55,079 bases of DNA from Prorocentrum cordatum. Lineage: Eukaryota. Below, in pieces: positions 6,151 to 44,745 of this stretch; within the stretch, counting starts at the first letter, position 1, and the number at the start of each line of letters is the position of its first letter. Under the pieces are notes generated by a model. It was not told where the DNA came from. It saw only the letters and a list, made by a program, of their open reading frames with translations, and searched no databases. Location of the stretch: the NCBI GenBank assembly GCA_963575745.1, contig CAUYUJ010000186.1, positions 62,001 to 117,079 of the forward strand, given 5' to 3'. The position numbers and the translations under genes are program-made.

Positions 6151-6279
6151 TGATCGAACCGTCGGGTTGCCGAGGGATACTTGGATCGTCCAAATCATAT
6201 CCCCTCACGTCGGTGACTAGCACGGGGTGACCATGGAAGGGATCGCGGTTTAACTGGAGAAGATCTTGTGCGATCTGAA

Positions 6280-20493: not shown

Positions 20494-20536
20494 CTGATTG
20501 CGCTGAGGAGGGCCAGGACGAGAAGGTGCTGCTAGT

Positions 20537-20918
20537 GAGGGGGAGGGGGAGGAGGGGGGAGGAGGAGGAGGAGGAGGAGGAGGAGGAGGAGAAGGAGGAG
20601 GAGGAGGAGGAGGAGGAGGAGGAGGAGGAGGAGGAGGAGGAGGAGGAGGAGGAGGAGGAGGAGGAGGAGGAGGAGGAGGAGGAGGTGGAGGAGGAGGAGA
20701 AGGAGGAGGACAACGAGGGGGGAGGAGGAGTTGGAGGAGGAGGAGGAGGAAAAGAAGGAGGAGGAGGAGAAGGAGGAGAAGGAGAAGGAGAAGGAGGAGG
20801 AGGACGATGACGATGACGATGATGATGATGGTGATGATGATGATGATGATGTTGATGATGATGATGATGATGATAATGATAATGATGATGATGAGGAGGA
20901 TGAGGATGAGGAGGATGA
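20537..20918. repeat. (GGA)n then (GAT)n microsatellite at the LINE-A 3' end
   Basis: Direct reading. Confidence 0.95.
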
Positions 20919-23099
20919 TGGTCCCCGCGTCTGAAGGGGTCAGGAGCTCCTAGCTCGAACTGCCCCTCGGACCGAGGCGTTTCCCTATGGCCCTGCGGAA
21001 GCAACGCTCGGCCTCGTGCGCCTCAACACACACGCGCAGATCGCCCGAGTGACGTGAGCAATCAACCGCCTCAGCCGAGGCAAGCGGGTGACCGATCCAA
21101 GAAGTCGAAGCGACTCAGCACGCTCGGCAGCTGGCGAAGGCCACGCTGGCGGTCTAGCAGGCTGGTACACACCTGGGCTGTACGCCGCACCTGAGAAACA
21201 ACTAGGTCGATAGGACCAGGCCACTGCTGACCGACGTTGCTCCTCAGGCCTGCGGAGATCGAACCAGAGCGCGGGCGAAACTACACTCTCGGGTCGCCCA
21301 TCCACGTCGAGTGACGGGCAGGGCACTGACGCGGTAGCGCCAGAAGCTACATTGCGCAGGAGGCGTGCACACACGCCGAACAAAAAGGAACCTCGTATGA
21401 GGGCATCGGAACCACCGCCCCGACCCAGCCCAACGCGCATCTCCCGTGCGCGCTGTGGTGTCGCGCCTGATGCGGCTGAGTCGGTGCCCTTGGGCCAGTG
21501 CACGTGGCTGGCCAGCAAGCAGATGCAGGGGTGGGGAGGGAAACGTGGCAGCGGTCAAAGCGTCCTGGCAAACCCAGACCAAGTCCGTGCCGCTCCCCTC
21601 CCCCCCAATGGACAAGTGCACCACCTCCCGGCTGGCGGAACCCCAAAGCCCGAGTTCCAGGGCTGGCTGCGAGACACCAGCACCGCCAGAGGTCGGCAGC
21701 GGCAGTGCGACAGTATCACCCGTCTGGCGGAACCCCACGGCCCGAGTTCCAGGGCTGGCTGCGTAGCACCAGCACCGGCAACCAGGACGAAGCTGCAAGG
21801 GAAGCGGCGGGAGGAAGGGCACGGAGCGTGCCGCAAAAGACAAGTCAAGTGCAGCACCGCAGGACCCATCAGCAGAGCAACATGTCCCTTCGGCCCCAAG
21901 CCACACACTGGACTATTGCATTGCCAATTGAAGGGCCCCGATCCCGTGCTTGGGCGGACCTGCGCACCTGGGTCAGCCTTCTCTGAAGCTTGCTGCGCGG
22001 CAGCCGCAGCTGCTAAAAGGTGGCAGCACCGAGCACAGAGCCATGCTGCAAAAGAGTCGGAGCCCGATCCCTTGCGTGAGCGAACCTACACACCTGGTTC
22101 AGCTTCCGTCGCTAAAGCGGCAGCTGCACGCGCGCGCATCGAGCGTGGGCCATGCCCGCGGTGAGAGACCGCCGAAGGCAGCGACTGGCGACCTGACCGC
22201 CAGCAACGCAACTGCCCTCCAGGCACCAAGCCCCGCTAAGGACTTGTTGCATTGCCGACGGTATCGGGCCCGATCCCGCGCGTCAGCGAGCCGATGCACA
22301 TGGTTCAGGCCCGAACTGGGCAAGGGAGGCTAGCCGTCCACCCGCCTGCGAAGGCATCGCAGGGGTTCAGGGTCGCCGATGCCGCCCTGCCCTGCTGGCT
22401 GCGGCCCTCGCTTGAGGCGGCCGAGCTTCTGCCCGTCGCTCCTGGGCGCCCTCGGACACACCCGACATCCTGACGCTCTGCGTCCAGTAGCAGCACTTGA
22501 CGCAGAAGAGGTGGTTACCTGCACGCCATCGCTCATGGGAGGCGTGTGGATCGAGCACCCACCACTGTAGAAGCGTAGAAGCGCGGGTGGGGGCGGTGGC
22601 AGCGGCTGCGCCACAGGTGCTGCCCCCCGTTGCTCGTGAGCTGCAGCGGCCGCGCCGCCGCTGCCAGACGAAGCCCCGCCACCTCCACCGCGACGCTGAT
22701 CCCCGCCATCTGCTGCTGCTGCTGCGCTCTGCGAGCCGCTGGCCTGGCTGGAGAGCAAAGCCGCGCTCGCTGTGAGGGGGGCCGCGGCCGCGGCGACCGC
22801 GCCCGAGGCTCCCTCTGAGCCCGAAAGCCACGAGCCCGAGATCGCCTCGCCCCGACCAGCGCATTCCTGGCAGGCCCAGAGCGTGTCGCTGCCGACCTCG
22901 AGCCATGTCCAGCGTCTGCCGCATGCCCTCCGCGCGCAGTCGCGAAAACAGCAGTGGCTCCTCCAGCGCAGCTTGCATCCATGCCAGTCGCACCGCACCG
23001 CCGCCATGCCTGGCCCTTCGTGGCCGTCCACGGCGGTCAGCTCTGCGTCGCCCTTCTGCATGGCGGCGCCCAACCAGCGGGATGCCTTTTTGGCGAAGC

Positions 23100-23610
23100 G
23101 GTTTTGGCGCAGGCTGCGCTCGCGAACCGCATCGTCCGCGGGATGCATCTCAGCGCCCTGAATGGCGCGAGCGTCCGCACTGTGGTTACCCCTGCACTGC
23201 CAGGTTGCGATGCGCTCTGCCTGTACGTCCGCCAGCGTCGCGTGGGCCTTCACGTTGTGGATCGTGACGTTGTCGAGACCGATGTCCTCGAACGCTCGCC
23301 ACAAGCGAACCCATAGTTCTCGATCGGGCCGCTGCCACTGGAGGCACCATGCCTTGCCGGCTGCGAGGCCATTCACTAGCAGCTGGCAGTCGGTGAAGAT
23401 CCTGACTGGCGGGCGGCAGACCTGTAGCCCCTCGATGACAGCTGCCAGCTCCGCGGCCCCCGACTCTTGTGGGCATGGTCAAGGGGCGGGCCGAAGATGC
23501 CGAGGGCCTCCGCGTCGCTGCTCATGACGACGGCAGCCCAGCCACCCCTTGCGGATACCAGGCTGGGGTCCAGGACGCTGCCGTCGGTGGAGATGTCCCC
23601 AACCAATGGA
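23100..23610 (-). pseudogene. LINE-A RNase H domain
   Basis: DISTDGS...GGWAAV, IFTDCQ, RELW, VKAH, GNHSAD. Confidence 0.85.
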
Positions 23611-24439
23611 TGGCCCACGAGATCGGCGCGCCCTTCCTTGCGCGCCAGGCGCTCCTCCGTGGGCAGGGGGAGTGAACGCCTATGCTCGGGCGCCAGGGCC
23701 CTCGACCAAAGCGGGTCCTCCGCCGCCTCGGCACTGGCCACGTCGACGAGGGTCCCGGAGTGGAAGTCGTCGGGCGCCCTCCTCTCGTCTGCGTCGTCAT
23801 TGGCCTCCCACTCTGCACGGCCGAGCGCGGTGGCAGGGCGCTGCCGCGCCAGGTGCCGCACCGTGCCGTGTGCAATGCACCCGCGAGGGCACCAGGGCGA
23901 CGACGCCAGCGCGTTGTTGGCCGAGCTCATCTGCCTGGCCGCTTGCTGACTCATACGCTTGCGGTGCAGGGTGCGCCTGATGCTGGACAGGGCCCCCCCT
24001 GAAGCCAAGTGCTCCAAGCCAGGATGCCTAGCCGCATCCCTCCGCAGCAGCCGCTCATGGCTGGCGCCGATGTGCTTGGAGAGGGTCGAGGCGCCCAAGG
24101 CCTTCAGGTCGATGGGCTGCTTCAGGTCGTTGAGGAAGAGGCCTGGCCGCAGAGATGGCATGCCATCCCAGGCAGTGGCATGCCAACGCGCATGCCGATG
24201 CAAGGCCCCTGCCAGAAAGTGCCTCAGGCCCCTCAGCATCCTTCCTCGCCAATGCCCCTTCGAACGCACTCCCGAATGCACGCGAGTCCGTGCGGTCCGC
24301 GTTGGACTGTGTCGCCTTGGCCCACGCAACGATGGGCAGCGTCGCGTGGTCGACAAGCGGGTCGCTGGCCAGGCGCTTGCTTTGGAGGAAACTGAGGCTG
24401 AGGCTCTTGCACGTCCCTCTGCCGTGGTGAACGGCATTG

Positions 24440-25680
24440 GCCTGCCTCCGCCACTTGGTGAGCTGCGGCGACGGCCAGCCCACCGCGCTCAGGCCGTATT
24501 TGGTTGCAGGCCTGAGCCCCCTGTTGGCCACACGCGCTGCTGATGGTGTCTCCTGGGAGCGGATGGCGCGCAGCCTCTGCAGCTGCGCTGCCGCCTTGGT
24601 GTGGCGCGCCTCGAGCACCACGAAGGCCTGGCCGTCAAGTCAATAGTCCACTCGCAGGTTCTTGACCGAGTCGGCGATGAGAAAGGCGGCACCCCCCATC
24701 TGCTTGGCCACCGGTGAAGCCAGCTCAGGCGAGCTCGCAAGCAACTCGCTCTTCGACTCCGACACCTTGCAGCCCAGCGCCACGAGCTGCGCCGCCGCGG
24801 CCTTGGTCGCCTGGGCAACGTGCGCTGCGACCTGTGCCATGCGGCCGTGGCACCCAACGCAGTAGTCGTCGAACATGATGGCTAGGGTGGCCCGAGGCTC
24901 CAGCACCCGCCATAGGCGCGCGTGCTTTCATCGGCCAACATCAGCAGGCCGCACTCGAGGAGCCGCCCTTGCGTGCGAGCAACCAGCGAGGAGGCCCGCG
25001 TCGAGCAGGCATGGGTCGGAGACGCTGCCGTCTAGCATGAAGCGCCGCGCGCCCGCAGACAAGGTCAGCGCCATGCCCAGCAGCCCCGTCGGGTAGCCCG
25101 CCATGGTGCTGCGGTCCTGGATGATCGCCAGGTCTACCAGCTCGTAGGCTGTCGATGAGTGATGCTGCAGCTACCTCGCCTCGTGCTTGCGATGCCTCGG
25201 CTCGGAGCGCTTGCCACCAGACGGCCTCTTCGGCCGCGCGCCCGCGGCCGCCCCAGAATGCGCCTGCTACGCCTGGGTCGATCTGGGAGCCCCAGTGCCG
25301 CGCGTCTGGCTGACGGACGCGACTCCAAAGGCGCGGCAGCCAGCCCAGCAGGCTTATGGGCCGAAAGCACCCTTGAGGCTTGGGCGGCATCACCACGAGA
25401 GGTTGGGTGATGACGTCGGGCCAGCCGCCCAGCTCCTCGCACCGCATCCCGAAATCGGTGATGACCTCCAAGAGGGCGTCGCTGAGGTCCGCTGCCTTTC
25501 TGGGGGTTAGGCGATCGCTGCCAACGCCAGTGCTGTGCCTGAGCGCCTTGGCGGCCTGACGCACCCGATCGGCCGAGGGCCTGGCCAGAGCCTCCGCCTC
25601 GGTAGGCGGTCGCCATGGGCGGAAGCGAGCACTGCCCTGTTGGACCCGCCAGACCTCGGAGGTCCACTGTTGCGCCACGA
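24440..25680 (-). pseudogene. LINE-A reverse transcriptase
   Basis: TGVGSD, GWP, PKPQGCFRPISLL, SLID, AIMFDD, CKVSESKS, VKNLRVD; frameshifted. Confidence 0.85.
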
Positions 25681-27411
25681 CCTTCGCCCGGTCGGGGCCG
25701 CGCGCTGGAGCGCCGCGCAGTTCGTCGTCGGGTGCCCAGCCGCGCGGCCCCCGCCTTTAGGCGTGGAGGCCCCCAGCGCCTGCTGCCATGGATGTGCGGA
25801 TCCACTCCTCGGACCCCTTGCAGCGAATGGCGGCAAAAGCGGCGCGCTCCGCCTCGGCCGCGGCCCTGGCCTCGGCAGCCCATTCGGCCAGGGGCAGCAG
25901 GTCGGGGCAATCGGCCGCCAGGGCTACGCGCGCGGCCCACTGCGCCCCCAGCGGGAGGCCCTCCCTCCATGGTCGGGGGCTTCGGGGATGCCGCACCTGC
26001 GCGCACAGCTCTGCCGTCCGCGCTGCCGCCGCCGCTGCTGCCGTCGCAGCCGCCGTCGCTGGAATCCGACGGAAGGTCCCCGTGATACCGCATGGGATGC
26101 TTGACGGACTGAATGTAGCTGTAGTGCTCGTCGTCCGCTACTGCCCACGCGTCGGGGCGGCTGGGCTCTAGGGCGATCATGCCGCGGTGGTACTCGTCCC
26201 TCGCAGGCTGCGCGACAGACGGGCTCTCCTCGCGCAACTCCACGGCCCTGTTCCAGCGTGCGGCCGCTCGGTCCGTGAACGGCTGAGCCGTGCAGGTGCC
26301 GTTCTCGCCCTCGCTGCCAGCGCTGCCGCTGCCTGTGGCTGCCGCTGTCGAAGCCGATGTTGCATGCCCCGCGCTGGGGGCTGCTGGGTGCCCTCCACCT
26401 GCTGCCGCCAGTGTGGCGAAGGATCCTGGAGGGTGCTGGATAGGGATCGCGCTGGTCCTCTCCGCGGCTGCTGCTCCCAGCGCGACCCCTGCGCCTCCGC
26501 CGCTGGGTGCCCCCGCGGTGTTCGCGTCGGCGGCGCCATGGCCATCGTGCTGGCAGAAGCGTGCAAGTGCGTAGTGCGTGCACAGCTCCATCCACTCGGC
26601 CTCGTCGCGCTCTGGGTCGGGAGCCTGCAAGGTGTGGGAGCCAGCCTCGCGCGATGCCCTGGAGGGCCCCCCGAACTCCTTGCGCGCCAACCTCGATGGC
26701 GCTCCACTCGCCGGGAGCCGCCACTCCCTCAAGAGCGGCGCAGAGGGTGGGGGGCTGCGGCGTCGCCCGAGGGTCGCCACTCAACTTGGGCTGCGGCGTC
26801 GCCCACGGGCATCCACCCCCGTGCGGCCCCCGATCCGTCGGGGGCCTGGTCGAAACATCGAAGGCGAAAGTGGCGCCGAGGGGCCTGCTGTAGTCGCCGC
26901 GCTCCTCTAACCGCCGCTTCGATTCCGCGTGGTCGACGACAGTTCGGCGGCGCGCCCCCCCGCCATCCTCGGGATGTAATTGGCCGAGATGTCGGAGAAT
27001 ACGAACCAGCTCGCGCCTGCCAGGGCCCCCGCGCCGCCGCGCAGAAAAGCAGATCTCTCTCGCGGTGCGCATGCGGTTGTCGAAATCCTGCGCCGGGCCT
27101 GTGGCGACGCGCGTCGGCAAGTCCAGCGTGCGGAAGATGTAGGGCTCGCACTTCTCCATCCACTCGGCCTCGTCGTTGTGGTGGTTGGGGTTGCTAGGGT
27201 TTGAAGCCGAGCTGCGCGCTCGGCGCCCCGACGCGCGCTTGCAGCGCTTGATTGCCCTGGCCTGCATGCGCTCAGCCTCGCGGCGCTCGGGGCCCAGCTC
27301 AAGGCGCCCCTCAAACGCGGGCCCCCCGTCGTCGGCCTCGGCGCCGCCTGTGAGAGACCTCCCCCGTGTGAAGTCGTCGCTCAGGTGCATGAGCCCCCCC
27401 CCCCCCCCCCC

Positions 27412-28494
27412 TTGAAGCTGTCCTTAGGGCCCTTGATGGGGCGCGCCTTCGCCTGGGAGCCGAAAGCGAACTTCGGCGGACCCCCCCGTCCCCGATCGAA
27501 GTCGGCGTCGTCGGGGTCGGTCTGGTGCGCCCAGACGAGCTCCTCATCTACGCCCTCGCAGAGCCCCTGGTAGGCCTCCTCCATGTCCTGCAAGGCGCCG
27601 CCCATGTCAATCTGCGCCCAAACAGCGCTGTGCTCCCAGTGCATCTCCAGCATGGGCCCGAAAGGGCGGGCCTTGGGGAACGCCATCGGCCCCTTGACCC
27701 TGAACGATTGGCCCATGTCACCGCAGCAAGTGAAGCTGAGCTGCACTGCCATATGTGGGCGGCAAGGGTTGGCGCACCCCTGGGCGGTCATGCCCGGGCG
27801 CTTGCAGGCGAGGACTCGGTCGAACGTATCGGAGCTGACAATGAAGCAGTCTAGCTCCGAGGGCTCCTTGGTCGGGGAATACTGGCAGGTGCCCGCGCCC
27901 GCGTCAACGACGTGGCCGCCGACTTCGCAGAGCCAACGCCCCGCGCGTTGAAGGAAACGCTCGGGCTCCACGTTCCAGTCGCCCGCGGTGACCCACGGCT
28001 TCCCTGTGCGCTTGAGGAGGGGGCCGACCTCCTGCAGCACGGACTGGCCGGTCTCGCCGACGTCGTCGTTGTCCACGAAAACGGAGCCCAGCCGGAACCC
28101 GCCAGGTACCGTTCCATTGACATGGGCTACCGTGGCCCTTCCGTTCAGAGACCTGGCAGCTGGCCTTGCAGCCCTGATCGCCGGGGCCGCACATGCCGCT
28201 GGTGGAGCGCACTGCGACCCCGGTGCCACCGCTCACCGCGCGCTGCTGCGTTGCCCCCACGGAACTCACGCCTGGGGTCAGCACCGCGTTCCAGCCGACC
28301 AGCCTGCACCGCTGCTCCTGCTCGACAACTCGGTAGCCGTTGAGGTGGTGTTCCTGGAAGCAGATCGCGTCTTCCATGCGCGCGTCGGCGACCACCTGCT
28401 GCTGAGGGCCCAACTGCCCGCCGAGGATGGTCGCGAAGGGGCCCCGACCGCTGCCGTTGAGGCTGACCGCCGTGAATATAGGCTTGCTACCCAC
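27412..28494 (-). pseudogene. LINE-A AP-endonuclease domain
   Basis: SLNG, ICFQEHH, GGTGVAV, AGDWN, LDCFIVS, RPH. Confidence 0.85.
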
Positions 28495-28509
28495 GCTTCC
28501 CCCTCCGCT

Positions 28510-29685
28510 TGAGCCCCGCCGAGCGGAGGCTCTGGAGGAGCTTCTGCGCGCGGAGCCCGCGCCTCTGGGCGGCTTGGGCTGCGGGGCCCCCGCGTCGAGC
28601 CCCTTCGTCGCCGCTGCCGGCGCTTGCTGCCGCGCTGCCCTCCTCCGCGGGGACCTCGACCTCTTCCTCCATGCTGTACAAGATGTTGCTGAGGTCGGCC
28701 TCCTCGAGCTTCTCGTCGCCGCTGTCGCGTTATGCTGTTGCGCCCGCTGCCGCGACGCTGCGAGCCAGCCGACGCTGCTGGGAGACTTGCTTCTCCCAGT
28801 GCTGAGCGTAACCTTTGTTGAGCATGCCAGGGGCCTGGTCCAAAGCTTCCAAGAAAGCTGTAGCGCGTTCGCCCTCGCTGAGTGGGGCAGCTGGGGACCC
28901 AGGCGCTGCTGCTATGGCGCCCGACACCACCACTTCTTCTCCGAATTGCTCTCCGCGCTCCCGTTTGTACTTGGCCAAGAGGTTGTCGATGAGCGCCTGG
29001 AGCTCCTTCTCCGCTGCCTTGCTCTGCTCGTGCTTGCCCTCGAACTCGAGCTTCTGCGCCTCGAGGCCCGTGATCCCCCTCGCGGTGTCCTTTATCTCCC
29101 TGTCGAGCGCCTCCGAGCTGCTCCGCTGGTTCCGCTGTTTGCGCTCGATCTCGCTGAGCTGCACGGGCGTGGGCTTCTCCTCGGCGAGCTCGTGCTCCAG
29201 CTGCAGCACCTCCTGCCGCTTGCCCGCCAGTATTTCAGCTGCGCCCTCCACTCCTTCGAGTTGTTTGATGTCGCTCCGCAAGTTCCCGAGTCGCCGTGCC
29301 CTCTCGTCCTTCGGTGCGGCGTGGACTGCTGCTGCGCCTCCATCGCCCCCTGAAGCTGCGCGAGCATTTCCTTCGAGCTTTTTGACCTTGCGCCGCAGCT
29401 GGTTGAGCTCGTTTCGTTCCTTGGCGTCCAAGTGCGACATGCCCCTCCGCCACGAGCTTGCACCCTATCTTTGCTCCCACCAATCAAATCCGCAGCTACG
29501 GCCTACGTGCCTGGAGCCCCAGTTCTTCTTGGCTCCGCACTTGGGACGGTCCCAGGCGTTGGGCTGGCTGCCGCCACCGCTGCTGCCCCCAACTCCGCCT
29601 GGCTGACCTCCTCCGCATCCGCCTCTGCCGCCTTGCTGCCGGCGCCGCGCGCGGCACCCCGCGCACCACCACCGAGTCGTGCCAT
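28510..29685 (-). pseudogene. LINE-A ORF1 (degenerate RanBP2-like Zn finger + coiled coil)
   Basis: WDRPKCGAKKNWGSRHVGRSCG (a W-x-C-xx-C...N...R-xx-C-xx-C pattern with two Cys lost), then a heptad-rich ELNQLRRKVKKLE region. Confidence 0.7.
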
Positions 29686-29870
29686 GCCCGCCGCGGCTGG
29701 GCTCCCAATCGGGCGACTGGGGCCAGGTGTCGGAAAAGGTTATGGAAATGAATGAACAGTGGCCGCAAAGGCCTCGCTGAAAGCTAGGTCGATTTGGAAT
29801 CTGACCCAAGAAGGAACGCGACGGCTAGAGCCAACCACATGAAACCAGACATCTGCGCTGATCGCGCCAT

Positions 29871-29907
29871 CTTGAGCCAAAATGGCTTGAGCCAAAATGG
29901 ATACGGA
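29871..29907 (-). other. Dinoflagellate spliced leader (22 nt, 1 mismatch) plus a 15-nt relict leader
   Basis: Minus strand reads TCCGTATCCATTTTGGCTCAAG (29907-29886) then CCATTTTGGCTCAAG (29885-29871). Canonical leader: DCCGTAGCCATTTTGGCTCAAG. Confidence 0.95.
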
Positions 29908-29930
29908 TGATGATGATGATCATGATACGG

Positions 29931-30443
29931 CTATCCCCTTGCAGCGAGACATCCAACAAGAGACGGCTTTAGTAAACAATCGAGCGGCCGCTCAGGACAG
30001 CCGGAGGGCGCCCACGGGAGCAGCATCCGGGAGCGACGCCGCCAGCAGCAGGTCGGCCAGGCGCGCCGTGAGGGCGCCGGACACCTTGGCCGACACCTGC
30101 CGCGCGAAGTCCGCGCCGAGGCGGCCGATCGGCTCGCCTGGGAGGACCGCGGTGCGCCGCGCTGCGGTGGCGACCTCCGCCACGAAGCGCTGCGCGGCGG
30201 GGCAGAGCCGGCCTTCGGTCTCAACCGCGAAGGCCACGACCGAGTCGCCGTACCTGTCCTTTTTGCGCCGCTCCGCGTCCATGGCCGCATGGCCGACTGC
30301 GCGGACAGCCGGGCCCGATTCCCCAGGCGAGCGAACGGTGACGTCGACCCAGGTCGGCGTGGGCAGACCCGGCCAACTCACAACGAGGTCGAGCCGAGCC
30401 TCGGTGATTTCGCCGCCGGCCTCCCGGTACAGCTCTGGCACGC
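29931..30443 (-). mobile_element. 3' fragment of a CRE-type non-LTR retrotransposon (restriction-like endonuclease)
   Basis: EARLDLVV, WVDVTVR, AERRKKDRY, AFAVETEGRL, followed by a stop and a short 3' UTR. Confidence 0.85.
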
Positions 30444-30499
<56 letters not shown>

Positions 30500-30778
30500 C
30501 ATGATGATGATGATGATGATGGTGATGATGATGCTGGTGATGTAGGTGGTGACGATGATGCTGCTGATGATGATGGTATTGATGATGGTGATGATGTTGT
30601 TGATGTTGGTGATCATGCTGCGACTGATGAAGATGACGATGAATATGATGTTGCTGCTGATGATGGTGATGATGCTGATGTTGGTGGTGATAATGATGAT
30701 GATGATGGTGATGAAGATGAATATCAATATTAACATGAATATGAATATGATGATGCGGGTGATGATGATGATGCTGCT

Positions 30779-30850
<72 letters not shown>
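30444..30850. repeat. (GAT)n compound microsatellite
   Basis: Direct reading. Confidence 0.95.
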
Positions 30851-30863
30851 ACTGATGCCGCAC

Positions 30864-31294
30864 CTGCCGGCGCTGAGGAAGGCCAGGATGAGGTTGACGT
30901 CGGCCGCGGTGGCCTTTGGCATCCCCCGCTGCTGGAAATGCTCCTTGGCCCTCGCGCCCCAGTAGATCTCCGCCCCCGGGCGGTTCCAGTCCTTAGGCCC
31001 ACCGTGGCAGTCCAGGTGGTAGTGCGGGATCGTGGCTGGCCTGGAGCCGTATTGGACAATCTCGATGAAAGCAGGCATCTCCGCGCCCTCCACGTCCTGC
31101 CCGAGCGGGGGGAGCACGAGCGGGCTGTCTGGAAACAGGGCCTTCACGCACTTGTGGGCCCGGAGCGCCTTCGCCTCACGGCTGCGCAGCTGCATCCTGA
31201 TGGTGCCTAGCCGGTGCTCGACCCCTTCACCATCGCTGCCGTCCAGCCAGATGTCGTCAACCGGGGCGGCCACGGGTTCACCTCCTCCTCCCTC
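30864..31294 (-). CDS. Exon A of the ART-fold host gene (EGGGGEPVAAPVDDIW...VNLILAFLSAG)
   Basis: Acceptor cccccgcAG|G, donor AG|GT. 431 nt = 143 codons + 2 nt; complex, stop-free sequence. Confidence 0.8.
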
Positions 31295-31579
31295 CTGCGG
31301 GGGCCCCCGTTTTGGGACCTCGGAGGACCCACTTGCTCGAGACGCCCTCGGACAACGGCCGGCGTCCCGAAACCGTGCGGTCACCCCGAATCCCGACTGA
31401 TCGGGAAACCAAGACTGCCATACACATACACTTTCGGAAGTCCGCGCTGATTTCTTGCATCGGCGCCGGAGGCGTCGCAAGAGGGCTCCAGCGCAGATCC
31501 TGGAAATCTGCGCAGCGCCCTTGGTTCTGGGGCCCTCCGACTCCTGGCGGAAAGCGCCGACTGCACCCGACGGGTGCTC

Positions 31580-31826
31580 GTCGTCGTCGTCCTCCTCCTC
31601 CTCCTCCTCCTGCTCCTCCTCTTCCTCCTCCTGAAGCTCCTCCTCCCTCTCCTCCCCCTCCCCCTCCGCCTCCTCCTCCTCCTCCTTTTCCTCCTTCTCC
31701 TCCTCCTCCTCCTCCTCCTCCTCGTCCTCCTCCCTCTCTCCTCCTCTCCCTCCTTTTTCCTCCTCCTCCTCCTCCTCCTACTCCTCCTCCTCCTCCTCCT
31801 CCTCCTCCTCCTCTTCCTTCTCCTCC
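31580..31826. repeat. (CCT)n microsatellite
   Basis: Direct reading. Confidence 0.95.
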
Positions 31827-31864
31827 GCCGTTTTGGAGCCTTCCGACCCACCCGACGGGCGCTC

Positions 31865-31948
31865 CTCCGCGAGCCTCATCAGGAACGCCCGCTCGTTGAA
31901 AGCCAGGCGACGCCGCCGCGGCAGCAGCTGCAGCAGGCGCTCCACCAC
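31865..31948 (-). CDS. Exon Z of the host gene (VVERLLQLLPRRRRLAFNERAFLMRLAE)
   Basis: Acceptor ttcaaAG|G, donor GAG|GA; 84 nt, phase 0/0. Confidence 0.65.
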
Positions 31949-32748
31949 CTTTGAAGGGCAACGACAGGAGAAGGAGGAGGAGAAGGAGGAGGAGGAGAAG
32001 GAGGAGGCGGAGGAGGAGGCGGAGGAGCACCGGCTCAGGGGGGGACCGAAGTTTCGATGCTCGAGGTTTTCGGACATGTGCGTGGGTTCTCGGCTGCTTT
32101 CCAGCCTCGGGATGCCTCTAGCGGCTGCGCCTAGCCAGGGAGCGTTCCGGGTTTCTCGGATCGCCCCGAAGCGCCACCAGAGGCCTGAACTATCATCCGA
32201 AAACTAACGGTGGACCGGCTCAGGAAGGAAACATCGACCTGGAATCAGCGATGCATTACCGATGGATCGGCGATAAGCCCTCGATAGCAAATCCGCACGT
32301 TCCTGGACAAGGCGGGCTATCGGGTCCCTGTTGGCGAAGAATGGGCGACTGGGGGTCGACGTCCCCCCCCCCCCCCCCCCAGAGCCTATCCCCCCTTGCC
32401 CCTTGGCTTTCGAGTCATAGCTTGGCTCTCTGGCGGCCGCTCGGGACGATCCAGGCACCCCTGGGGGGCGCCTCGCGGCGATGCTCAGCTGCTGGAAGGC
32501 ATCCCGGGGCTGGAACACCGCCGAGAACCGTCGAAAACGCCCGCAAACCTCGAACCCCCCCCCTGAGCCCATCCCCTCCAAACGTCTCCTGCGGCCGTTG
32601 GGAGAGATCCTGGAGTGGGCGACGGGGGGGTCGATGCGTCCCGCCTTGAGCGTGTCCCCCCTCACGTGACCCCAACTCCGTAACCTCCTCCGGACAGGAG
32701 GAGGACAAGAGCGGGACCCCCCCCTCCCCCCCAGCGTTGCCCCCGCGC

Positions 32749-38431: not shown

Positions 38432-38517
38432 TGGATGATTATTCTCTCCAAAGCGCTCGAGCCGAAACGGTATCGGCCCGTTCCAACATGTCTCTCGGGA
38501 GGCTGCAAATCCATCCA
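38432..38517 (-). repeat. 3' LTR of copia-2 (86 bp; TGGATG...CATCCA)
   Basis: Perfect 6-bp terminal inverted repeat. The adjacent minus-strand GGAAGGCCGGGAGGGC is PPT-like. Confidence 0.95.
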
Positions 38518-38683: not shown

Positions 38684-40192
38684 TCACCCATCCAGCGCCG
38701 CCCGCAGGGTCAGTCGACTCCGACCTGCTCTCGCCGCGAACCCCATCGCCGCCAGGAACTTCTTGATCAGGGGTCCGTCCAGGTGCTTCGTACCAATATC
38801 GCTGATGTTTTCGAGCCCTGGGATCTTGTTGACGCGCAGCTTCTTCTGCTGCACAGCCCTCTGCAGCCACAGCAGAGGAGTATGTAGGTGTCGAACTCGT
38901 CCGACTCCACGACGTTCTGCGATGCCCTTGCCCGCCGTCGCGTCGCACTTCAGCGCGATCTCGAGGTCCACACCCATGTCCTTCGCGAGAGTCTTACGGC
39001 CGAGCCCGATACTGCCGCCCTTCACGAGCGCGTGGAACTCCGCTTCTCCAGTGGATAGAGCGTTGAAGCCTTGGGTTGTCGAACTGCTTCTAATCCAATG
39101 GTTACCGATCATCACCGTACACGATGAAGTAGACTTACGTGTTCTCAGGCAGCCCGCGAAATCGCTGTCCGTGTAGACTTGAGCAACTCGCCGATCTGCC
39201 TGCCGTGGATACTCAACCACCAGCCTCGGGGTACCGACGAGGTACCGCCCGATCCGCTTCATGGCCTGCCACCCGCCAATCGTCGGATCCTGCATCACTC
39301 GAGCCGATTCCTTCGCCGCGTACTGCAAATCGGGTCGATCTTGCGCCAGGTGCTGGATCCGCATGCACACCGAGCGGTAGATGGCCCGCTCTCGTCCTTG
39401 TAGTGCCTCTCCGTCTAGCTCCTGCCTCTTGATCTCCGGCGTGACCACTGGCTTGCACTCCTTACCCTGCAGGCCCAGCTGGGCCAGGATGATCTCCACG
39501 TGCCTCGGGTCCGCCTCGTACTCGATCTTCTCCATGTCGTTGACGTTCGGCCTGCGCCACCTCACGATGCGATTCAGCACCACGATCTCATCGATGTCGC
39601 CGCTCTGCGTGTCAGGTCCCAGAACTCCTCGTACCTTCACGATCAGGTGCTCGCCGAGGTTCTCCGTGAAAGCTTTCGAATCCTTGCGCCCACCGAGCAC
39701 CACGAAATCGTCGCCGTGCCTCCAAACGACCAGCTTGCCGACCTGGTAGATGCAAGGCGAGAACTCGCACTGCTTCGACTTCAGGATCCTCACCATGATG
39801 TCCTCCGCCTTCAGGTCGAATGATGAGCCGGCATCTCTCAGTCCATACATGGCCTGCAGCAGCAGCCAGCACTCGTCGTCCTTGCATTCTTGATCCTCCG
39901 CTGGCGCCTTCAAGTACACTGGCCTCTGCAGCTCCGAGTGTAAATGCGCTCTTGAGATATCGATGAATGTCAGCACTCGATCCTCATGCCGCCCTGTCAT
40001 CGCCATAGACAGAATCATCCTCAGGCCCTCCAGCGGCGGGGTCGTCGCGAAGGTCGCCGCAGCGTCCTCAGGCGCAAGGGTGCTCAGCTTCCGCGTCTCT
40101 TTCGCCACCAACCGGCTCCTTAGCTCTGGCTTCTGCTCGTCGCCCTTGTTGGTGTCGACCCAGCCGCTCGGCAGCGGCTTGGTTCCCGTCAC
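38684..40192 (-). CDS. Copia-2 RT-RNase H (in frame with the upstream ORF across one TAG)
   Basis: WVDTNKG, RSRLVAKE, FIDISRAH, AMYGLRDA, HGDDF, YTDSDFAG, STGEAE, SDIGTK. Confidence 0.95.
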   Translation of the reverse strand: MTGTKPLPSGWVDTNKGDEQKPELRSRLVAKETRKLSTLAPEDAAATFATTPPLEGLRMILSMAMTGRHEDRVLTFIDISRAHLHSELQRPVYLKAPAEDQECKDDECWLLLQAMYGLRDAGSSFDLKAEDIMVRILKSKQCEFSPCIYQVGKLVVWRHGDDFVVLGGRKDSKAFTENLGEHLIVKVRGVLGPDTQSGDIDEIVVLNRIVRWRRPNVNDMEKIEYEADPRHVEIILAQLGLQGKECKPVVTPEIKRQELDGEALQGRERAIYRSVCMRIQHLAQDRPDLQYAAKESARVMQDPTIGGWQAMKRIGRYLVGTPRLVVEYPRQADRRVAQVYTDSDFAGCLRTRKSTSSCTVMIGNHWIRSSSTTQGFNALSTGEAEFHALVKGGSIGLGRKTLAKDMGVDLEIALKCDATAGKGIAERRGVGRVRHLHTPLLWLQRAVQQKKLRVNKIPGLENISDIGTKHLDGPLIKKFLAAMGFAARAGRSRLTLRAALDG

Positions 40193-43100
40193 CTACAGCG
40201 CCTCGGAAATCTTCCTCCTCGCGAACACACCGAGCCTGCTCATGTAGCCCATCTCGTCCATGCGCGCGTTCTTGACGCCCACCGGGTCCAGCACCGCACC
40301 GCTGATCCCGTCGTAGAAGGTCGCCATCTCCTCCTCGGTCGCCTGGTCCAGAATCTCTGGCTCGTCCGCGGTCTGACCAACTTCGAACGCATGGATCCCT
40401 CTACCGATCTTCAGCTCGTTCCTGATGCCCTTCAGGATTGCCTTCACCAGCCCCAAGGGGTACCTCTCGGCCGCCTTCGCCCTCCTCTCCAGGAGGTGCG
40501 CATGCTCGTGAGAGCCGTCGCACACGATCCCCACCTGCTTCGCCACCTCGCGGCTGTTCGTCATCCAGCCCGTCGGCTTCGCCACGAGGCCCTCCGAGCC
40601 GTCTGGCCAATACGACCTGGCTCCGAACACGCACTGGCTGCCCTTGACCACCATGGCGCCGGGCAGCTCCCTGATGCTCTTGATGCACTCCTCCTTCCAG
40701 CTCGACGCCGTCCAAGGCCTCGAATGCTGGTAGGCCGCCAGCTCCATGCAGAAGCCCAGGAAGACCTTGCACTCCGCGAGCAGCCTCTGGAACATAACTT
40801 CATCACGCTTGCCGCTCGCCTTCAGCAACTCCATCAGCTGCGAGAACGGGGTGCATACAGGAGACATGACGAGGAAGGCAGGGTCTCCCTCCTCGATCTC
40901 CGCTCTCGCTCGCTTCCTCTGCTTCTCGAGCCGGAAGTCCCAGCCCGTCCTGAGGTCCATCGCAACTCCTGGCTTCAGGTTGAACTTTGGAGCTCCCTTG
41001 GCGAACTCCCCTGGGTTGAACACTTCCTGCAAGTCCAAGCTGTCGAGGCCGAGCTGCTCCAGCAACGCGCCGATTTCTGCCTCGTCGCCCATGGCCGTGT
41101 CCGCCGCCGCCGGAGCACTTCCCGACGCAGTCCCCGATGAGCTTGGCGCCCCTGGTTCACCGACTGGTCCTCGATCACCGACTCGTCCTCGCTTGGCTCC
41201 AGGTTCTTCGTCTTCACCTCTCTCAGGTCGCTCTCCAGCTACTCGCCGCAAGTGCGCCTCTGCCAGCCGAACTCCACCGCCGAACGTCTGGTCGTCCTCC
41301 ATCGCTTTCTCGATCCTCGCTCGGCATTCCTCGCTGGGCAAGATCGCGCGCTGGTTGTCCCGAGCTGCCGCGCGGCCTCTGCAACCTGGAGTGTAGCCGC
41401 AGCGCCGCAGCTCCACGCCCTTCCTGATGTAGACCCTCCTCGGAGCAGGAGGACCCGCAGGTCCTGGAACAGGGGGCAGGTCCACGTCCGGCACCACCTG
41501 GTCCGCCACCACCTTCGCCATGGCAGGTGGTACTTCGAGTCCTTCACCTTCTTGACCAGGAACTGGTCGCCACGGCGCGCCCTGCAGCTCTGAGAAAAGA
41601 GCCTTGTCGCTCCTCGCTGTCAGCGGCATCCTCTTGACGCTCCTGGCTCTCATCACGCCCTTCGGCGTCGCCACGTACACCTCGTCGCCGTCGTCGCGGA
41701 TCCCGTGCAAGACGCCCTCCAGCCACCTGTCCACCAGCCTCGACTCCCTCTTGCCGACTGGCAGGTAGAACACCTTCTCGCCGAACTCCGGGAGCGCCCT
41801 CTTGCAAGCGCGCCCCATCCTCAACTCGTACGGCGCGCGCCCGTCCGAGCCCACCTGACCTCGATTGTGGACTGCTGCGCCGTGCCTCACCATCCACGGC
41901 AGGCACGGATGCTTCGGGCCGATCGTAACTCCGTGCATCTCCTCCACCGCGCGCTTGAGGGTCCTCGTCAGGACCTTCATATCCTTGACAGCTCCTTCAG
42001 CTAGGCCGTTCGACTGCGACTCTCCAACCGCCGAGGTCTCCAGCAAGCACTCCACGCCGTGGTCCTTCTTGAGCCTCTTGATGGCCTCGTCCCTCAGCGC
42101 GATGATGCTCGGCTCGCTATCGCACCTGAAGACCACCTTCTTGTAGCCGCCGTTGACCGCGAACTTCACCAGCATGTCGGCGCTGCGCGCGCGCGCCGCC
42201 CCCTTGCAGGTCAACACCTCCGCGCCCGTGTACCTGTGCAGCGAGTCCGTCACGAACAGGATCGGAGCCGCGTCCTCGCCGCTGCCGAGGTAGCCGCAGT
42301 CGAACGCCACGACTGGTATCGCATCCTCCGTGTGGCTCCTTGTCACATGAGGTTCAGCTCGCCCGCGTCCTGCAACGCAGCGCCTGCGCCAGGCTCGATA
42401 CGGCGTGTGCGACACTTCATGGTCCTCTCGCTCCTGCTGGGTCGGCTCATGCGGTCTCCGCGCCGCTCTCACTGCCGGCCGCTCCCGAGCAACCGCCGGG
42501 GCAGGTGGTGGAGGCACCGCTTGTGGTTGAACAGGTTCTTGGACTGGTTCTGCTGCTGCCGGCGCCGCTGCCTGACCCGATCCAGCTCCCTCGCCTGCGT
42601 CGTCACTCCCCATCATGCGGATATCCTTCTGCTTCTTGCCGTTCGCGCCGGGCTTGGACCAGGCCTCCGCGCGGCCGATCACGTCCTTCGCCTTGCCGTA
42701 TGGCATCAGCTCCAGCTCCATCTCGTGCACGTCGTTGCGCCGCTGGAGCGGTGTAATCACTCCTGTCGTCTTGTTCTGCGCGTAGCTGCCGCCGGCGTCG
42801 AAGACGACCCGATGGCCAGCGACCATCTCCGAGACCGAGGCGAGTGCCTTGCTGACCTTCGCGACCCTAGCCTTGATGCCTCTCACTTGCGCCGAGCCGT
42901 CCGAGTTGCGCACCGACCCGACGAGCTCCTTCGTGCCCTCATCGGCCACCCAGCCGCCGTTCGCGGTCCTGCAGCCTTCACCCTTCGCACTCATGTCATT
43001 CTCGTACGTCGGGTAGTCCGGCGCCAGCTCAGATGGCACGACCGTCGTAGCTGCACACGAATCGATACCGAGCACCATCTTGCGGGTTGCTCTCGCCGTG

Positions 43101-44376
43101 TCTGCACCGAGCCTGCTCAGCTCGTGCACCAGCTTGTCGTCCACCAGGCCGCCCTCGATCAGCAGGTCGAAGGCCTTCTGCGCCACGTCCTTCTCGTCTA
43201 TCATGAACGGCGCGAGCCACAACCCGCGCAGAGCCTTCTCGGGTTCCGGCTCCATCATGTGTAGGTTGTTCTTCTTCTTCTTCGGGCAGTCCTTGGTCAT
43301 GTGCCCGTACTCCTGGCAGTTGAAGCACTTCGGCCCCTTGCCAGTCTTGCCGTCCTTTGCCTTTCCGCTCTTCGAGGAACTCTTCGATTTGGAGTCGCCC
43401 CTCGACTTGCCCTTGCTGTCTGACTTGCCCTTGCCTGCACCAGGTCCGCCCTTGCGGTGCCAGCAGTTCCTCTCGTCGTGGCCCTTGCCGGTGCAAATCC
43501 TGCAGCGCCCCTTGCCACCTTGGTTGTTGAACGCCGAAAGGTCCATCGGGGCCACTCCGTTCTGCGCCGCCGCCGCTGCGGCTTGAGCTCGTCGAACATT
43601 CAGGATCTCCACTCTGAACTTGGGCCACGCCTTGAGCCTCTCCGCATTCATGATCATGTGCTGCCTCAGCGGAGACTCGGGCAAGTGCCTCAGCACGATG
43701 CCGATCTTGATTGCGTCCGAGAGTGTCTCCTCCGACGCCGACTCGTACAGACTGATCTCCCTCTCGAAGGCTTCCAGGCGTATCATCATCTCACCGCTGA
43801 AGTCCCAGGCCAGCAGCAGCATCATCAGCTGCCCTGCGTATCTGCTCGCCGCCTGGGGTTCAAATCGAAGGTGTAGTTGCCGCCATGCTTCGAACCCCTC
43901 GAGCTTGCCCGCGTTCAGCACGACATCGAGCGCCTGCTCCTGCACGTCTGGATGAGCCAGTACCCCAACGTTCTTGACAGCTGCACGTCACCGGGCTCGA
44001 GGTTCGCCGCCAGCACTGGCTCTGTCTCCCGCTTCGCTCTGGCCATCGCCGCCGCCATGTTCGGGTTCGTCGCGCCCGCAAACGCCTCGAACACCACTGA
44101 CCAGTCTCGCCACGGCGGCTTGGCCCCGTCGAACATCTCGGGCTTGCCTATCATCTTCATCTCCGCGGCCATCCTCTCGGGCCCAGGGTCTGGCGCGTGC
44201 GCCGCCGCCGCCGCCGCGGCCGCACCCTGCTGCCCAGCCGCCTGCTGCGCCTGCTGCGCAGCCGCCTGCGCCGCTCTACTCGCGGCGTCTGCATCCGCCC
44301 GTGCCTGTCGTAGCTCTCCTTGTACTTGCTCGAGTGCCTGACGAAGCGCCTGGACGTCCTGGACCGTCACTGCCAT
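40193..44376 (-). pseudogene. Copia-2 gag-protease-integrase-DNMT-like polyprotein (one frameshift near 43941)
   Basis: GKPEMFDG, GFEAWRQL, CCHC knuckles CRICTGKGHDERNC and CFNCQEYGHMTKDC, protease IDSCA, integrase HEVSH..W...C / AFD / RCDSE / SNGLAE. Confidence 0.93.
40410..41040 (-). other. C5-cytosine DNA methyltransferase-like domain of copia-2
   Basis: LQEVFNP, DLRTGWDF, LVMSPVC (40853-40864), PWTASSW, QCVFG, KPTGWMTN, CDGSHEH, YPLGLVKAI. Confidence 0.75.
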
Positions 44377-44659: not shown

Positions 44660-44745
44660 TGGATGATTATTCTCTCCAAAGCGCTCGAGCCAAAACGGTA
44701 TCGACCCGTTCCAACATGTCTCTCGGGAGGCTGCAAATCTAGCCA
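44660..44745 (-). repeat. 5' LTR of copia-2 (86 bp)
   Basis: Direct repeat of 38432-38517 with 4 substitutions. Confidence 0.95.

What the first reader, a model, noticed from the sequence alone, without database searches (positions are those of the whole stretch)
29871..29907. A LINE whose 5' end is a spliced leader plus a relict leader
Seen: TCCGTATCCATTTTGGCTCAAG + CCATTTTGGCTCAAG lies about 190 nt upstream of the LINE-A ORF1 ATG (29685), on the same strand. Fainter relics may exist at 29826-29835 (TTGGCTCTAG) and 29801-29814. Known: dinoflagellate mRNAs receive this 22-nt leader, and tandem 15-nt relics mark repeated rounds of mRNA recycling via the AG at leader positions 6-7. Inference: this retrotransposon is trans-spliced, was copied to its cap end at least twice, and may need no internal promoter because each integrated leader supplies the next acceptor. 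In this copy that AG is AT, which would block another round.
Basis: partly seen in the sequence, partly recalled or inferred. Interest (0 to 1): 0.8.

Follow-up and report, generated by a model that had tools for sequence, protein, structure and literature searches.

The report
Decayed dinoflagellate LINE starting with spliced leader
A broken copy of a jumping gene (a LINE) in a dinoflagellate genome begins exactly with the short leader that these cells splice onto their messenger RNAs, plus one older leader remnant, which suggests the element's own spliced RNA was copied back into DNA at least twice.

Summary
On the minus strand, 29907-29886 is the 22-nt dinoflagellate spliced leader (21 of 22; G7 is T). 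29885-29871 is an exact 15-nt relic.

It lies 185 nt upstream of ATG 29685. A transcriptome protein (P0004) and seven contigs of a related organism support that ATG as the start of ORF1.

The element is a decayed non-LTR retrotransposon running from 29907 to about 20921, followed by an (ATC)n tail. Its parts in order are ORF1, an APE-like nuclease, an RT-like region and RNase H.

In the related organism the repeat family reaches to within 28 nt of the relic and stops before 30100. ATC repeats lie directly 5' of the leader and form the 3' tail. This fits one insertion unit running from leader to tail.

What is missing: I could not inspect any second copy at its 5' end, and there is no RNA evidence. 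All collection scans for relatives were empty. The "fainter relics" are not beyond chance. The "no promoter needed" and "blocked by AT" ideas are untested, and the second is overstated.

Verdict: probably a trans-spliced LINE RNA that was copied full length, with confidence about 0.6. This is a new variant of the known leader-relict retrocopies and of moderate interest.

The parts
29886..29907 (-). DNA-encoded dinoflagellate spliced leader, 22 nt, 21/22 to the consensus (position 7 is T instead of G)
   Evidence: Consensus as printed in PMC7245778 and PMC5585692.
29871..29885 (-). Relic leader: leader positions 8-22, exact, directly abutting the full leader
   Evidence: period 15, 2.0 copies, 100%.
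29686..29870 (-). 5' UTR of the LINE (185 nt). Contains two weak leader-like strings (29826-29840 and 29802-29825) that are not beyond chance.
   Evidence: contigs of run X1 cover 29725 (10 contigs), 29758 (6) and 29843 (5). Seven contigs run from this stretch into an ORF start reading MAGRGGG. One search gives the chance estimate; the RNA fold is not unusual (z -0.80).
28490..29685 (-). ORF1: Gly/Arg-rich N-terminus, a CxxC...CxxC zinc-ribbon-like motif, then a coiled-coil part. In this copy it is broken by one frameshift (between 29685 and 29659) and two in-frame stops (about 29467 and about 28731).
   Evidence: tblastn of P0001 residues 1-320 onto 29440-28490 (58% identity, E 1e-100), and of P0004 residues 7-81 onto 29659-29441 (62%, E 2e-28), same frame. 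Also. The zinc-ribbon Pfam hits on P0004 are below threshold.
27740..28500 (-). APE-type (endonuclease/exonuclease/phosphatase) nuclease-like region, split by a frameshift near 28240
   Evidence: Read from the translation (..IFTAVSLNGSG..AICFQEHH.. and ..TAGDWNVEP..). Pfam Exo_endo_phos reaches only E 0.14 and 12.4 bits against a cut-off of 24.5. No PDB match.
24640..25760 (-). Reverse-transcriptase-like core, with frame change near 25230 and in-frame stops at about 25757 and 24928
   Evidence: Motif reading (..KPQGCFRPISLLGWLPRLWSR....AIMFDDYCVG..); in the Atlas feature search, 17 of 30 hits are in the RVT_1 set, best score 0.91 (a lead only). No Pfam RVT hit among 53 ORFs. No PDB match.
23152..23457 (-). 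RNase H domain at the C-terminal part of ORF2. The ORF2 frame ends at the stop just below 22333.
   Evidence: PF00075 RNase_H, E 8.7e-08, 32.9 bits, above the 25.8 cut-off.
20921..22332 (-). 3' untranslated region of the element. It is part of the multi-copy family in run X1.
   Evidence: X1 depth is 19-89 in the bins from 20884 to 22419. One search gives the sequence.
20806..20920 (-). (ATC)n microsatellite tail at the 3' end of the element, followed by (CTC)n
   Evidence: period 3, 38.3 copies.
29908..29926 (-). ATCATGATCATCATCATCA immediately 5' of the leader. This is the same repeat as the 3' tail, so it may be the target site or a target-site duplication. The repeat phase runs into the first bases of the leader.
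   Evidence: the only words of 9 nt or more shared between the 5' flank/UTR and the 3' flank are ATC-type microsatellite words (32 of 32 shared 12-mers).

Best explanation
The stretch is the true 5' end of one insertion of a non-LTR retrotransposon (LINE) in a dinoflagellate genome.

Proposed history. The element's mRNA was matured by spliced-leader trans-splicing, like other nuclear mRNAs of these organisms. The element's own machinery reverse-transcribed that RNA to its very 5' end and inserted it at an (ATC)n repeat. The daughter copy therefore starts with a DNA-encoded leader. That daughter was transcribed as part of a longer precursor. A new leader was spliced onto the AG at positions 6-7 of the encoded leader, which cut the old leader down to the 15-nt relic. 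The RNA was again copied full length, giving the present copy: leader, relic, 185-nt 5' UTR, ORF1, ORF2, 3' UTR and (ATC)n tail.

The copy then decayed through frameshifts, stops and the G7T change.

What is shown: the sequence anatomy, the LINE identity, and that the 5' UTR belongs to the family.

What is inferred: the two rounds, the trans-splicing of LINE RNA, and any role of the leader as acceptor or as carrier of a core promoter motif.
For: (1) An exact leader plus relic with the junction predicted by the recycling model (the model is described in passages of PMC3229502 and PMC7245778).

(2) The downstream element is LINE-like, on the same strand and in the canonical order. ORF1 has three homologues at about 60% identity. 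An APE-like and an RT-like region are read, with an Atlas RVT_1 lead. RNase H is above the Pfam threshold. There is a microsatellite tail and no terminal repeats.

(3) In run X1, a related organism, the family is multi-copy from about 20884 to at least 29843 (depth 12-157 per bin) but has depth 2.84 or less in the bins from 30100 to 31251. The family's 5' border therefore lies between 29843 and 30100.

(4) Seven X1 contigs link the 5' UTR to an ORF start reading MAGRGGG (agreement 0.92). This is the N-terminus of P0004.

(5) ATC repeats lie directly 5' of the leader and form the 3' tail. No other shared word of 9 nt or more that could mark a different insertion border was found.

(6) Song et al. 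2017 report 'RNA-dependent DNA replication' enriched among genes with leader relicts (passage). Leader relicts upstream of RT genes therefore have precedent in bulk data.
Against: Only one copy could be examined at its 5' end. In one search the contigs that pile on 29871-29907 have unrelated sequence on both sides (49 and 38 loose ends in X1, agreement 0.36-0.37). This shows only that leader plus relic is common, not that family copies carry it. Whether the five X1 contigs covering 29843 continue into a leader is not visible.

The RT and nuclease domains fail Pfam thresholds and have no PDB sequence match.

The preprint 10.1101/783902 (passage) found no overlap between functions enriched in leader-relict genes and those enriched in RT genes in two Symbiodinium genomes, and concluded that the two processes are independent.

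The flank evidence depends on the assembly being correct across a 37-nt high-copy repeat. No listed contig bridges it with unique sequence on both sides.
Confidence: 0.6

Rival explanations
1. Chance neighbourhood or chimera. The leader plus relic belongs to another retrocopy (a retrogene 5' end). Either the LINE inserted just downstream of it, or the LINE's reverse transcriptase switched template at the end of the LINE RNA onto the 5' part of an unrelated trans-spliced mRNA. The leader then says nothing about LINE RNA processing.
For: Leader plus relic is very common in these genomes, with dozens of unrelated contigs in every run laid. A short ORF with a hydrophobic, signal-peptide-like stretch starts right after the relic (ATGGCG...). 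The 27 nt from 29844 to 29870 are not shown to belong to the family.
Against: Family contigs of another organism reach 29843, so a foreign piece could be at most 27 nt plus the leader. No target-site duplication other than ATC repeats marks an alternative LINE border. Downstream of the tail there is only microsatellite, with no continuation of a gene 5' UTR. A template switch landing within about 60 nt of an mRNA 5' end would be an unusual event (inference).
Confidence: 0.2
2. Fossil leader. A leader (plus relic) was captured once, long ago, and is now simply part of the family's DNA-encoded 5' UTR. It is transcribed from an internal promoter and inherited by every copy, without trans-splicing in each cycle.
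For: LINEs normally carry internal promoters (general knowledge; for example Pr77 of trypanosomatid L1Tc gives unspliced transcripts, abstract of PMC1874656 seen in the listing). The weak leader-like strings deeper in the UTR would fit old fossils.
Against: The leader plus relic matches the consensus at 36 of 37 positions. The family's 5' UTR differs between organisms at many sites: a contig over 29381-29634 has 33 differences in 254 nt, and there are listed differences at 29725, 29758 and 29843. An old fossil should be as diverged as its surroundings. The relic's truncation at leader position 8 requires at least one real trans-splicing onto an encoded leader.
Confidence: 0.15
3. Assembly artefact. 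The 37-nt leader plus relic is a high-copy repeat at which two unrelated loci were joined, so the upstream flank (ATC repeat and the neighbouring ORF end) does not belong to this LINE copy.
For: No contig listed bridges 29871-29907 with unique sequence on both sides. Contigs break there in all four runs.
Against: Even a misjoin inside the repeat would leave the LINE 5' UTR preceded by leader sequence, so the central observation would survive. Only the flank and target-site argument would fall. Near-identical contigs support both sides separately (29135-29405 with 0 differences; 30091-30425 with 3 differences).
Confidence: 0.05

Closest known systems
Leader-relict retrogenes of dinoflagellates ('mRNA recycling'; Slamovits and Keeling 2008, as described in PMC3229502, PMC7245778, PMC5585692 and PMC12014239)
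   Same: A DNA-encoded 22-nt leader is followed directly by a relic truncated after position 7. It lies at the 5' end of an intron-free transcription unit and is read as repeated reverse transcription of trans-spliced mRNA.
   Different: Here the recycled RNA is that of an autonomous retrotransposon, which encodes the copying machinery itself, and not a host gene copied in trans. The 3' end is an (ATC)n repeat rather than a poly(A) stretch. In four full-text searches and the passages read, I found no explicit description of a LINE whose 5' terminus is a leader. Supplementary tables of those papers were not opened and may list such cases.
Proposal that the leader relict supplies a TTT(T/G) core promoter to retrogenes (Song et al. 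2017, PMC5585692; abstract and passages)
   Same: A retrocopy that carries a leader carries its own expression signal. Here this would be the two TTTTGG motifs at 29871-29907.
   Different: It was proposed for host retrogenes and has not been tested for LINEs. Nothing in this window tests promoter activity.
Trypanosomatid LINEs: L1Tc/ingi with the Pr77 internal promoter (PMC1874656 and PMC8190864, abstracts in the listing), and the SL-gene-specific SLACS/CZAR/CRE elements (recalled, from no call)
   Same: These are non-LTR retrotransposons living in genomes where mRNAs are trans-spliced, so they relate LINE expression to the leader system.
   Different: Pr77 drives unspliced transcripts from an internal promoter. 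SLACS/CZAR/CRE insert inside leader RNA genes and so split the leader exon. Here a complete leader plus relic precedes the element and no leader remainder follows it.
Leader-bearing dinoRNAV endogenous viral elements (PMC10235124, passages)
   Same: A relict leader within 500 bp is used as a sign that a non-host RNA was retroposed, possibly by LINEs.
   Different: Those are viral RNA copies made in trans. Here the leader heads the LINE itself.

Membership tests
Dinoflagellate leader-relict retrocopy (mRNA recycling product) | DNA-encoded match to DCCGTAGCCATTTTGGCTCAAG upstream of the unit, on the same strand | tested here: met
   21 of 22 positions match at 29907-29886.
Dinoflagellate leader-relict retrocopy (mRNA recycling product) | Relic that starts at leader position 8 and directly abuts the full leader | tested here: met
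   15 of 15 positions match at 29885-29871.
Dinoflagellate leader-relict retrocopy (mRNA recycling product) | Hallmarks of insertion through RNA: a 3' tail and duplicated target | tested here: inconclusive
   There is an (ATC)n tail, and ATC repeats lie directly 5' of the leader. A repeat on both sides is compatible with a target duplication but cannot be told apart from insertion into a microsatellite.
Dinoflagellate leader-relict retrocopy (mRNA recycling product) | Transcripts of the locus or family carry a fresh leader | not testable with these tools
   No RNA run was offered. P0004 comes from a transcriptome-derived protein set, but its 5' UTR is not available.
APE-type non-LTR retrotransposon (LINE) | Reverse transcriptase domain | tested here: inconclusive
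   No Pfam RVT hit among 53 ORFs at E up to 5. No PDB match. RT-like motifs were read by eye. The Atlas gives an RVT_1 lead: 17 of 30 hits, best score 0.91.
APE-type non-LTR retrotransposon (LINE) | N-terminal apurinic-endonuclease-like nuclease upstream of the RT | tested here: inconclusive
   Exo_endo_phos reaches E 0.14 and 12.4 bits, below the 24.5 cut-off. Motifs were read. The position is correct.
APE-type non-LTR retrotransposon (LINE) | No long terminal repeats; a simple-repeat or A-rich 3' tail; an ORF1 upstream of ORF2 | tested here: met
   Self-BLAST shows no terminal repeats around 20.9-29.9 kb. There is an (ATC)n tail. ORF1 has three homologues.
APE-type non-LTR retrotransposon (LINE) | Dispersed multi-copy family | tested here: met
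   1212 contigs of run X1 were laid at 80-99% likeness over the element, but almost none on the flank from 30100 to 31251. The window itself holds only this copy.
APE-type non-LTR retrotransposon (LINE) | RNase H domain (present in some LINE clades) | tested here: met
   PF00075, 32.9 bits against a 25.8 cut-off.
Leader-gene-specific LINEs (SLACS/CZAR/CRE type; features recalled, from no call) | Insertion inside a leader RNA gene, so that the leader exon is split and the rest of the gene follows the element | tested here: not met
   A full leader plus relic lies upstream. Only microsatellite lies downstream of the tail, and there is no further leader piece nearby.

The most novel reading that the evidence does not exclude
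This LINE lineage has no promoter of its own. It is transcribed as a passenger of long host precursors, and leader trans-splicing cuts out and caps its RNA. Each new copy carries the leader as a built-in splice acceptor, and possibly as a TTT(T/G) core promoter, for the next cycle. The element that is thought to make dinoflagellate retrogenes would thus propagate by the same recycling route, with relic number recording its generations.
Probability: 0.3. Interest if true: 0.7.

Novelty: new variant of a known kind. Interest (0 to 1): 0.5.

Why it matters
Dinoflagellate genomes are full of retrocopied genes marked by leader relicts. Which element does the copying, and how promoterless copies get expressed, are both open questions (PMC5585692 and PMC6050394, passages).

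A LINE that itself begins with a leader plus relic would show three things. First, LINE RNA enters the trans-splicing pathway. Second, the LINE machinery copies trans-spliced RNAs to their very 5' end, which makes it a direct candidate for the retrogene-making enzyme. Third, a retrotransposon can solve the classic 'lost promoter' problem of 5' ends with a host-supplied leader.

It also gives a practical handle: relic counts at LINE 5' ends would record the number of retrotransposition generations. On present evidence this is one decayed copy, so the value is that of a well-defined, easily testable lead.

Tried and rejected
Whole genome of the window: not held.

Other copies in the window: none.

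Earlier findings: three look-ups, all empty.

RNA evidence: no RNA holder listed.

Collections searched for relatives of ORF1, all empty:
- JGI metagenome contigs with the single protein (225 pattern matches, 0 confirmed).
- JGI metagenome contigs with alignment A1 (211 matches, 0 confirmed).
- Viral contigs (10 matches, 0 confirmed).
- Prokaryote genome contigs (190 matches, 0 confirmed).
- An exact 21-nt word from the start of the 5' UTR in viral contigs: 0 matches.

Protein searches:
- The 548-aa ORF 25137-26780 had no homologue. It is only partly in the coding frame.
- A 59-aa frame that includes the translated leader gave one hit, P0005, in 1.84 billion representatives. P0005 is an unrelated repeat protein without leader-derived peptides and was rejected.

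PDB sequence searches of the RT-like and nuclease-like ORFs: nothing at E up to 10.

The upstream neighbour (ORF ending at 29992-29994): the Atlas gives only unnamed eukaryotic clusters. Its 3' end shares nothing with the LINE's 3' end except ATC repeats.

RNA fold of leader plus 5' UTR: not unusual (z -0.80; 45 of 200 shuffles fold as well).

BLASTP of P0004 against the frame that starts at ATG 29685 gave no alignment. The N-terminal likeness (MA.RGGGARGAARG) is low-complexity and was read by eye. It is backed by the X1 consensus.

Literature: four full-text searches and passages of eleven papers. No supplements were opened.

Full report
**Observation.** On the minus strand the window reads ...ATCATGATCATCATCATCA | TCCGTATCCATTTTGGCTCAAG | CCATTTTGGCTCAAG | ATGGCGCGATCAGCG... 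The 22-mer is at 29907-29886 and the 15-mer at 29885-29871. A search for the 15-mer with up to two mismatches gave three matches against 0.17 expected, and 0 of 100 shuffles reached three. TRF reports the pair as 2.0 exact copies of period 15. Compared with the consensus DCCGTAGCCATTTTGGCTCAAG printed in PMC7245778 and PMC5585692, the 22-mer differs only at position 7 (G to T). The 15-mer is leader positions 8-22, exact. This is the anatomy described for 'relict' leaders: truncation after nucleotide 7 at the AG, directly downstream of a full leader (passages of PMC3229502 and PMC7245778).

**The element downstream is LINE-like.** A three-frame reading of the minus strand, guided by third-position G+C, gives a consistent order of parts.
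- ORF1: three database proteins of 320-321 aa (P0001-P0003, about 60% identity) align over their whole length to 29440-28490 in one frame, E 1e-100, across one in-frame stop.
- An 81-aa protein from a transcriptome-derived set (P0004) aligns to 29659-29441 in the same frame, at 62% identity and E 2e-28, across another stop. P0004 is Gly/Arg-rich and then carries a CPKC...CRDC zinc-ribbon-like motif. Its Pfam zinc-ribbon hits are all below threshold.
- P0004 begins MAGRGGGARGAARG. The copy therefore has a frameshift between 29685 and 29659. The likeness is low-complexity: BLASTP gives nothing, and I read it by eye.
- Downstream follow an APE-like nuclease (about 28500-27740; Pfam Exo_endo_phos only E 0.14) and an RT-like core (about 25760-24640). 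The RT-like core has no Pfam hit among 53 ORFs and no PDB match. The Atlas gives an RVT_1 lead, 17 of 30 hits with best score 0.91.
- RNase H is above the Pfam threshold (E 8.7e-08, 32.9 bits against 25.8).
- ORF2 ends near 22333. A 1.4-kb 3' UTR follows, and then an (ATC)n tract at 20806-20920 that continues into (CTC)n.
- There are no terminal repeats and no second copy in the window.
- The coding path changes frame many times and has several in-frame stops, so the copy is dead.

No whole genome is held, so I laid contigs of four public runs on 20500-32000.
- Run X1 is a related organism. It holds many contigs at 80-99% likeness over about 20884-29715 (summed depth 12-157 per bin). Depth is 2.84 at 30100-30483, 0 at 30484-30867 and 0.42 at 30868-31251. 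The 5' border of the repeat family thus lies in the bin that contains the leader.
- Differences shared by all covering X1 contigs are listed at 29725 (10 contigs), 29758 (6) and 29843 (5). Family copies therefore reach to within 28 nt of the relic.
- Seven X1 contigs that align to the 5' UTR break at 29686 with a common continuation (agreement 0.92). Read on the minus strand, this continuation is 7 extra bases followed by ATGGCAGGACGTGGAGGTGGTG, that is MAGRGGG, the N-terminus of P0004. The 5' UTR and the ORF1 start are therefore contiguous in other copies, in another organism.
- This leaves at most 27 nt (29844-29870) that could be foreign.

**Flanks.** Directly 5' of the leader lie 19 nt of ATC repeat, whose phase runs into the first bases of the leader. 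The 3' end of the element is 115 nt of the same repeat. The only words of 9 nt or more shared between the 5' region (29990-29686) and the 3' region (21000-20300) are such microsatellite words (32 of 32 shared 12-mers). No alternative target duplication marks another 5' border. This fits a single insertion unit running from the leader's first base to the tail, placed in or primed on an (ATC)n tract. It is not proof, because a repeat on both sides is ambiguous. The argument also depends on the assembly being right across a 37-nt high-copy repeat, and no listed contig bridges it with unique sequence on both sides.

**What could not be shown.**
- The leader stretch attracts dozens of contigs in every run, with unrelated sequence on both sides. 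In X1 there are 49 loose ends at 29871 and 38 at 29907, with agreement 0.36-0.37. This shows only that leader plus relic is common.
- Whether the family copies of X1 carry a leader is not visible, because contigs break in this repeat.
- Searches for relatives of ORF1 with flanking DNA were all empty: metagenome contigs twice, viral contigs and prokaryote genome contigs. A 21-nt word of the UTR start was absent from viral contigs.
- A protein search with the reading frame that includes the translated leader gave only a spurious hit.
- No RNA run was offered.
- 'Trans-spliced and copied at least twice' therefore rests on the anatomy of this one copy.

**The fainter relics.** TTGGCTCTAG (29835-29826) matches the leader's end at 9 of 10 positions. 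The next 24 nt (CCGTCGC...TTGGGTCA) align to leader positions 2-21 with two gaps. Their scores (14 and 16) are reached by 1.6% of 21,952 background windows, and the mismatch scan did not list them. They are suggestive by position but not significant.

**Mechanism.** I think the most likely reading (about 0.6) is that LINE mRNA is matured by leader trans-splicing, is reverse-transcribed to its very 5' end, and is inserted. In the next generation it receives a new leader at the AG of the encoded one, which leaves the relic. The relic proves at least one trans-splicing onto a DNA-encoded leader somewhere in this sequence's ancestry.

That the encoded leader frees the element from needing a promoter is plausible. 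It connects with the published proposal that leader relicts give retrogenes a TTT(T/G) core promoter (PMC5585692, abstract and passages). Nothing here tests it.

That the G7T change 'blocks another round' is overstated. It removes one acceptor, while AG dinucleotides remain at the 3' ends of the leader and of the relic. PMC12014239 describes transcripts starting with shorter leader remnants (passage).

**Rivals.**
- A chance neighbourhood or a template-switch chimera with another trans-spliced mRNA (about 0.2).
- A fossil leader that is now simply part of the family's encoded 5' UTR (about 0.15). The 36 of 37 match in a UTR that otherwise diverges between organisms speaks against this.
- A misjoin in assembly (about 0.05). 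This would affect only the flank argument.

**Comparison with what is known.** Leader-relict retrocopies are well documented for host genes. Song et al. 2017 found 'RNA-dependent DNA replication' enriched among leader-relict genes, so RT genes with relicts have been seen in bulk. [quoted passage not shown] In four full-text searches and the passages read from eleven papers, I found no explicit description of a LINE whose 5' terminus is a leader plus relic. I opened no supplementary tables, and they might list such cases. I therefore file this as a new variant of a known kind.

It is not of the trypanosomatid type that inserts into leader genes (recalled, from no call). A complete leader plus relic precedes the element and none follows it.

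**Verdict.** Interest is moderate (0.5). It is a clean, cheaply testable lead on how dinoflagellate LINEs are expressed and on which element makes the retrogenes, but it rests on one decayed copy.

Noticed in passing
window 38432-38517 and 44660-44745 (minus strand): An 86-bp direct repeat (95% identical) brackets a copia-like element. The element has a zf-CCHC hit in the ORF 40196-43987 and an RVT_2 hit in the ORF 38687-40192. Each repeat contains a leader-like string: CCGTTTTGGCTCGAG with 2 mismatches to the relic 15-mer, and CCGTTTCGGCTCGAG with 3 mismatches. The 5' repeat ends in CA and is followed by TGGTAGCG..., which looks like a primer-binding site. This could be an old leader relic inside a very short LTR, or chance (0.17 such hits are expected per window).
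   Followed up: partly
window 29927-30443 and 30444-30850 (minus strand): Just upstream of the leader lies the last roughly 150 codons of another ORF (stop at 29992-29994), then a 65-nt 3' UTR and a short ATC repeat. About 400 bp of (CAT)n precede it. It looks like a 5'-truncated insertion of a different element with the same kind of tail. It is low-copy in run X1, the Atlas gives only unnamed eukaryotic clusters, and it shows no likeness to the LINE's 3' end.
   Followed up: partly
run X2, record 15 (laid on window 29871-29926): A 125-nt metagenome contig matches the relic, the leader and the ATC-repeat flank (56 nt, 5 differences) but continues with different sequence downstream of the relic. 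This hints that other leader-bearing retrocopies also sit right behind ATC repeats, that is, that (ATC)n is a preferred target of the copying machinery.
   Followed up: no
window 29924-29930 and 29900-29906 (minus strand): The heptamer CCGTATC, which is leader positions 2-8 including the unusual T at position 7, occurs a second time 24 nt upstream of the leader, just before the ATC repeat. I have no explanation for it. It may be chance or a trace of slippage at the 5' junction.
   Followed up: no
window 2910-6481 (minus strand): There is a second, weaker copia-type trace: RVT_2 at E 2.3e-4, below the Pfam threshold, in the ORF 2910-3443, next to a 597-aa ORF at 4691-6481.
   Followed up: no
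P0004: The only database protein matching the N-terminal zinc-ribbon part of this LINE's ORF1 is labelled by its source as coming from a green alga (Pyramimonas sp.) protein set. A dinoflagellate-type LINE protein there may mean contamination of that data set or a wider host range of the family.
   Followed up: no
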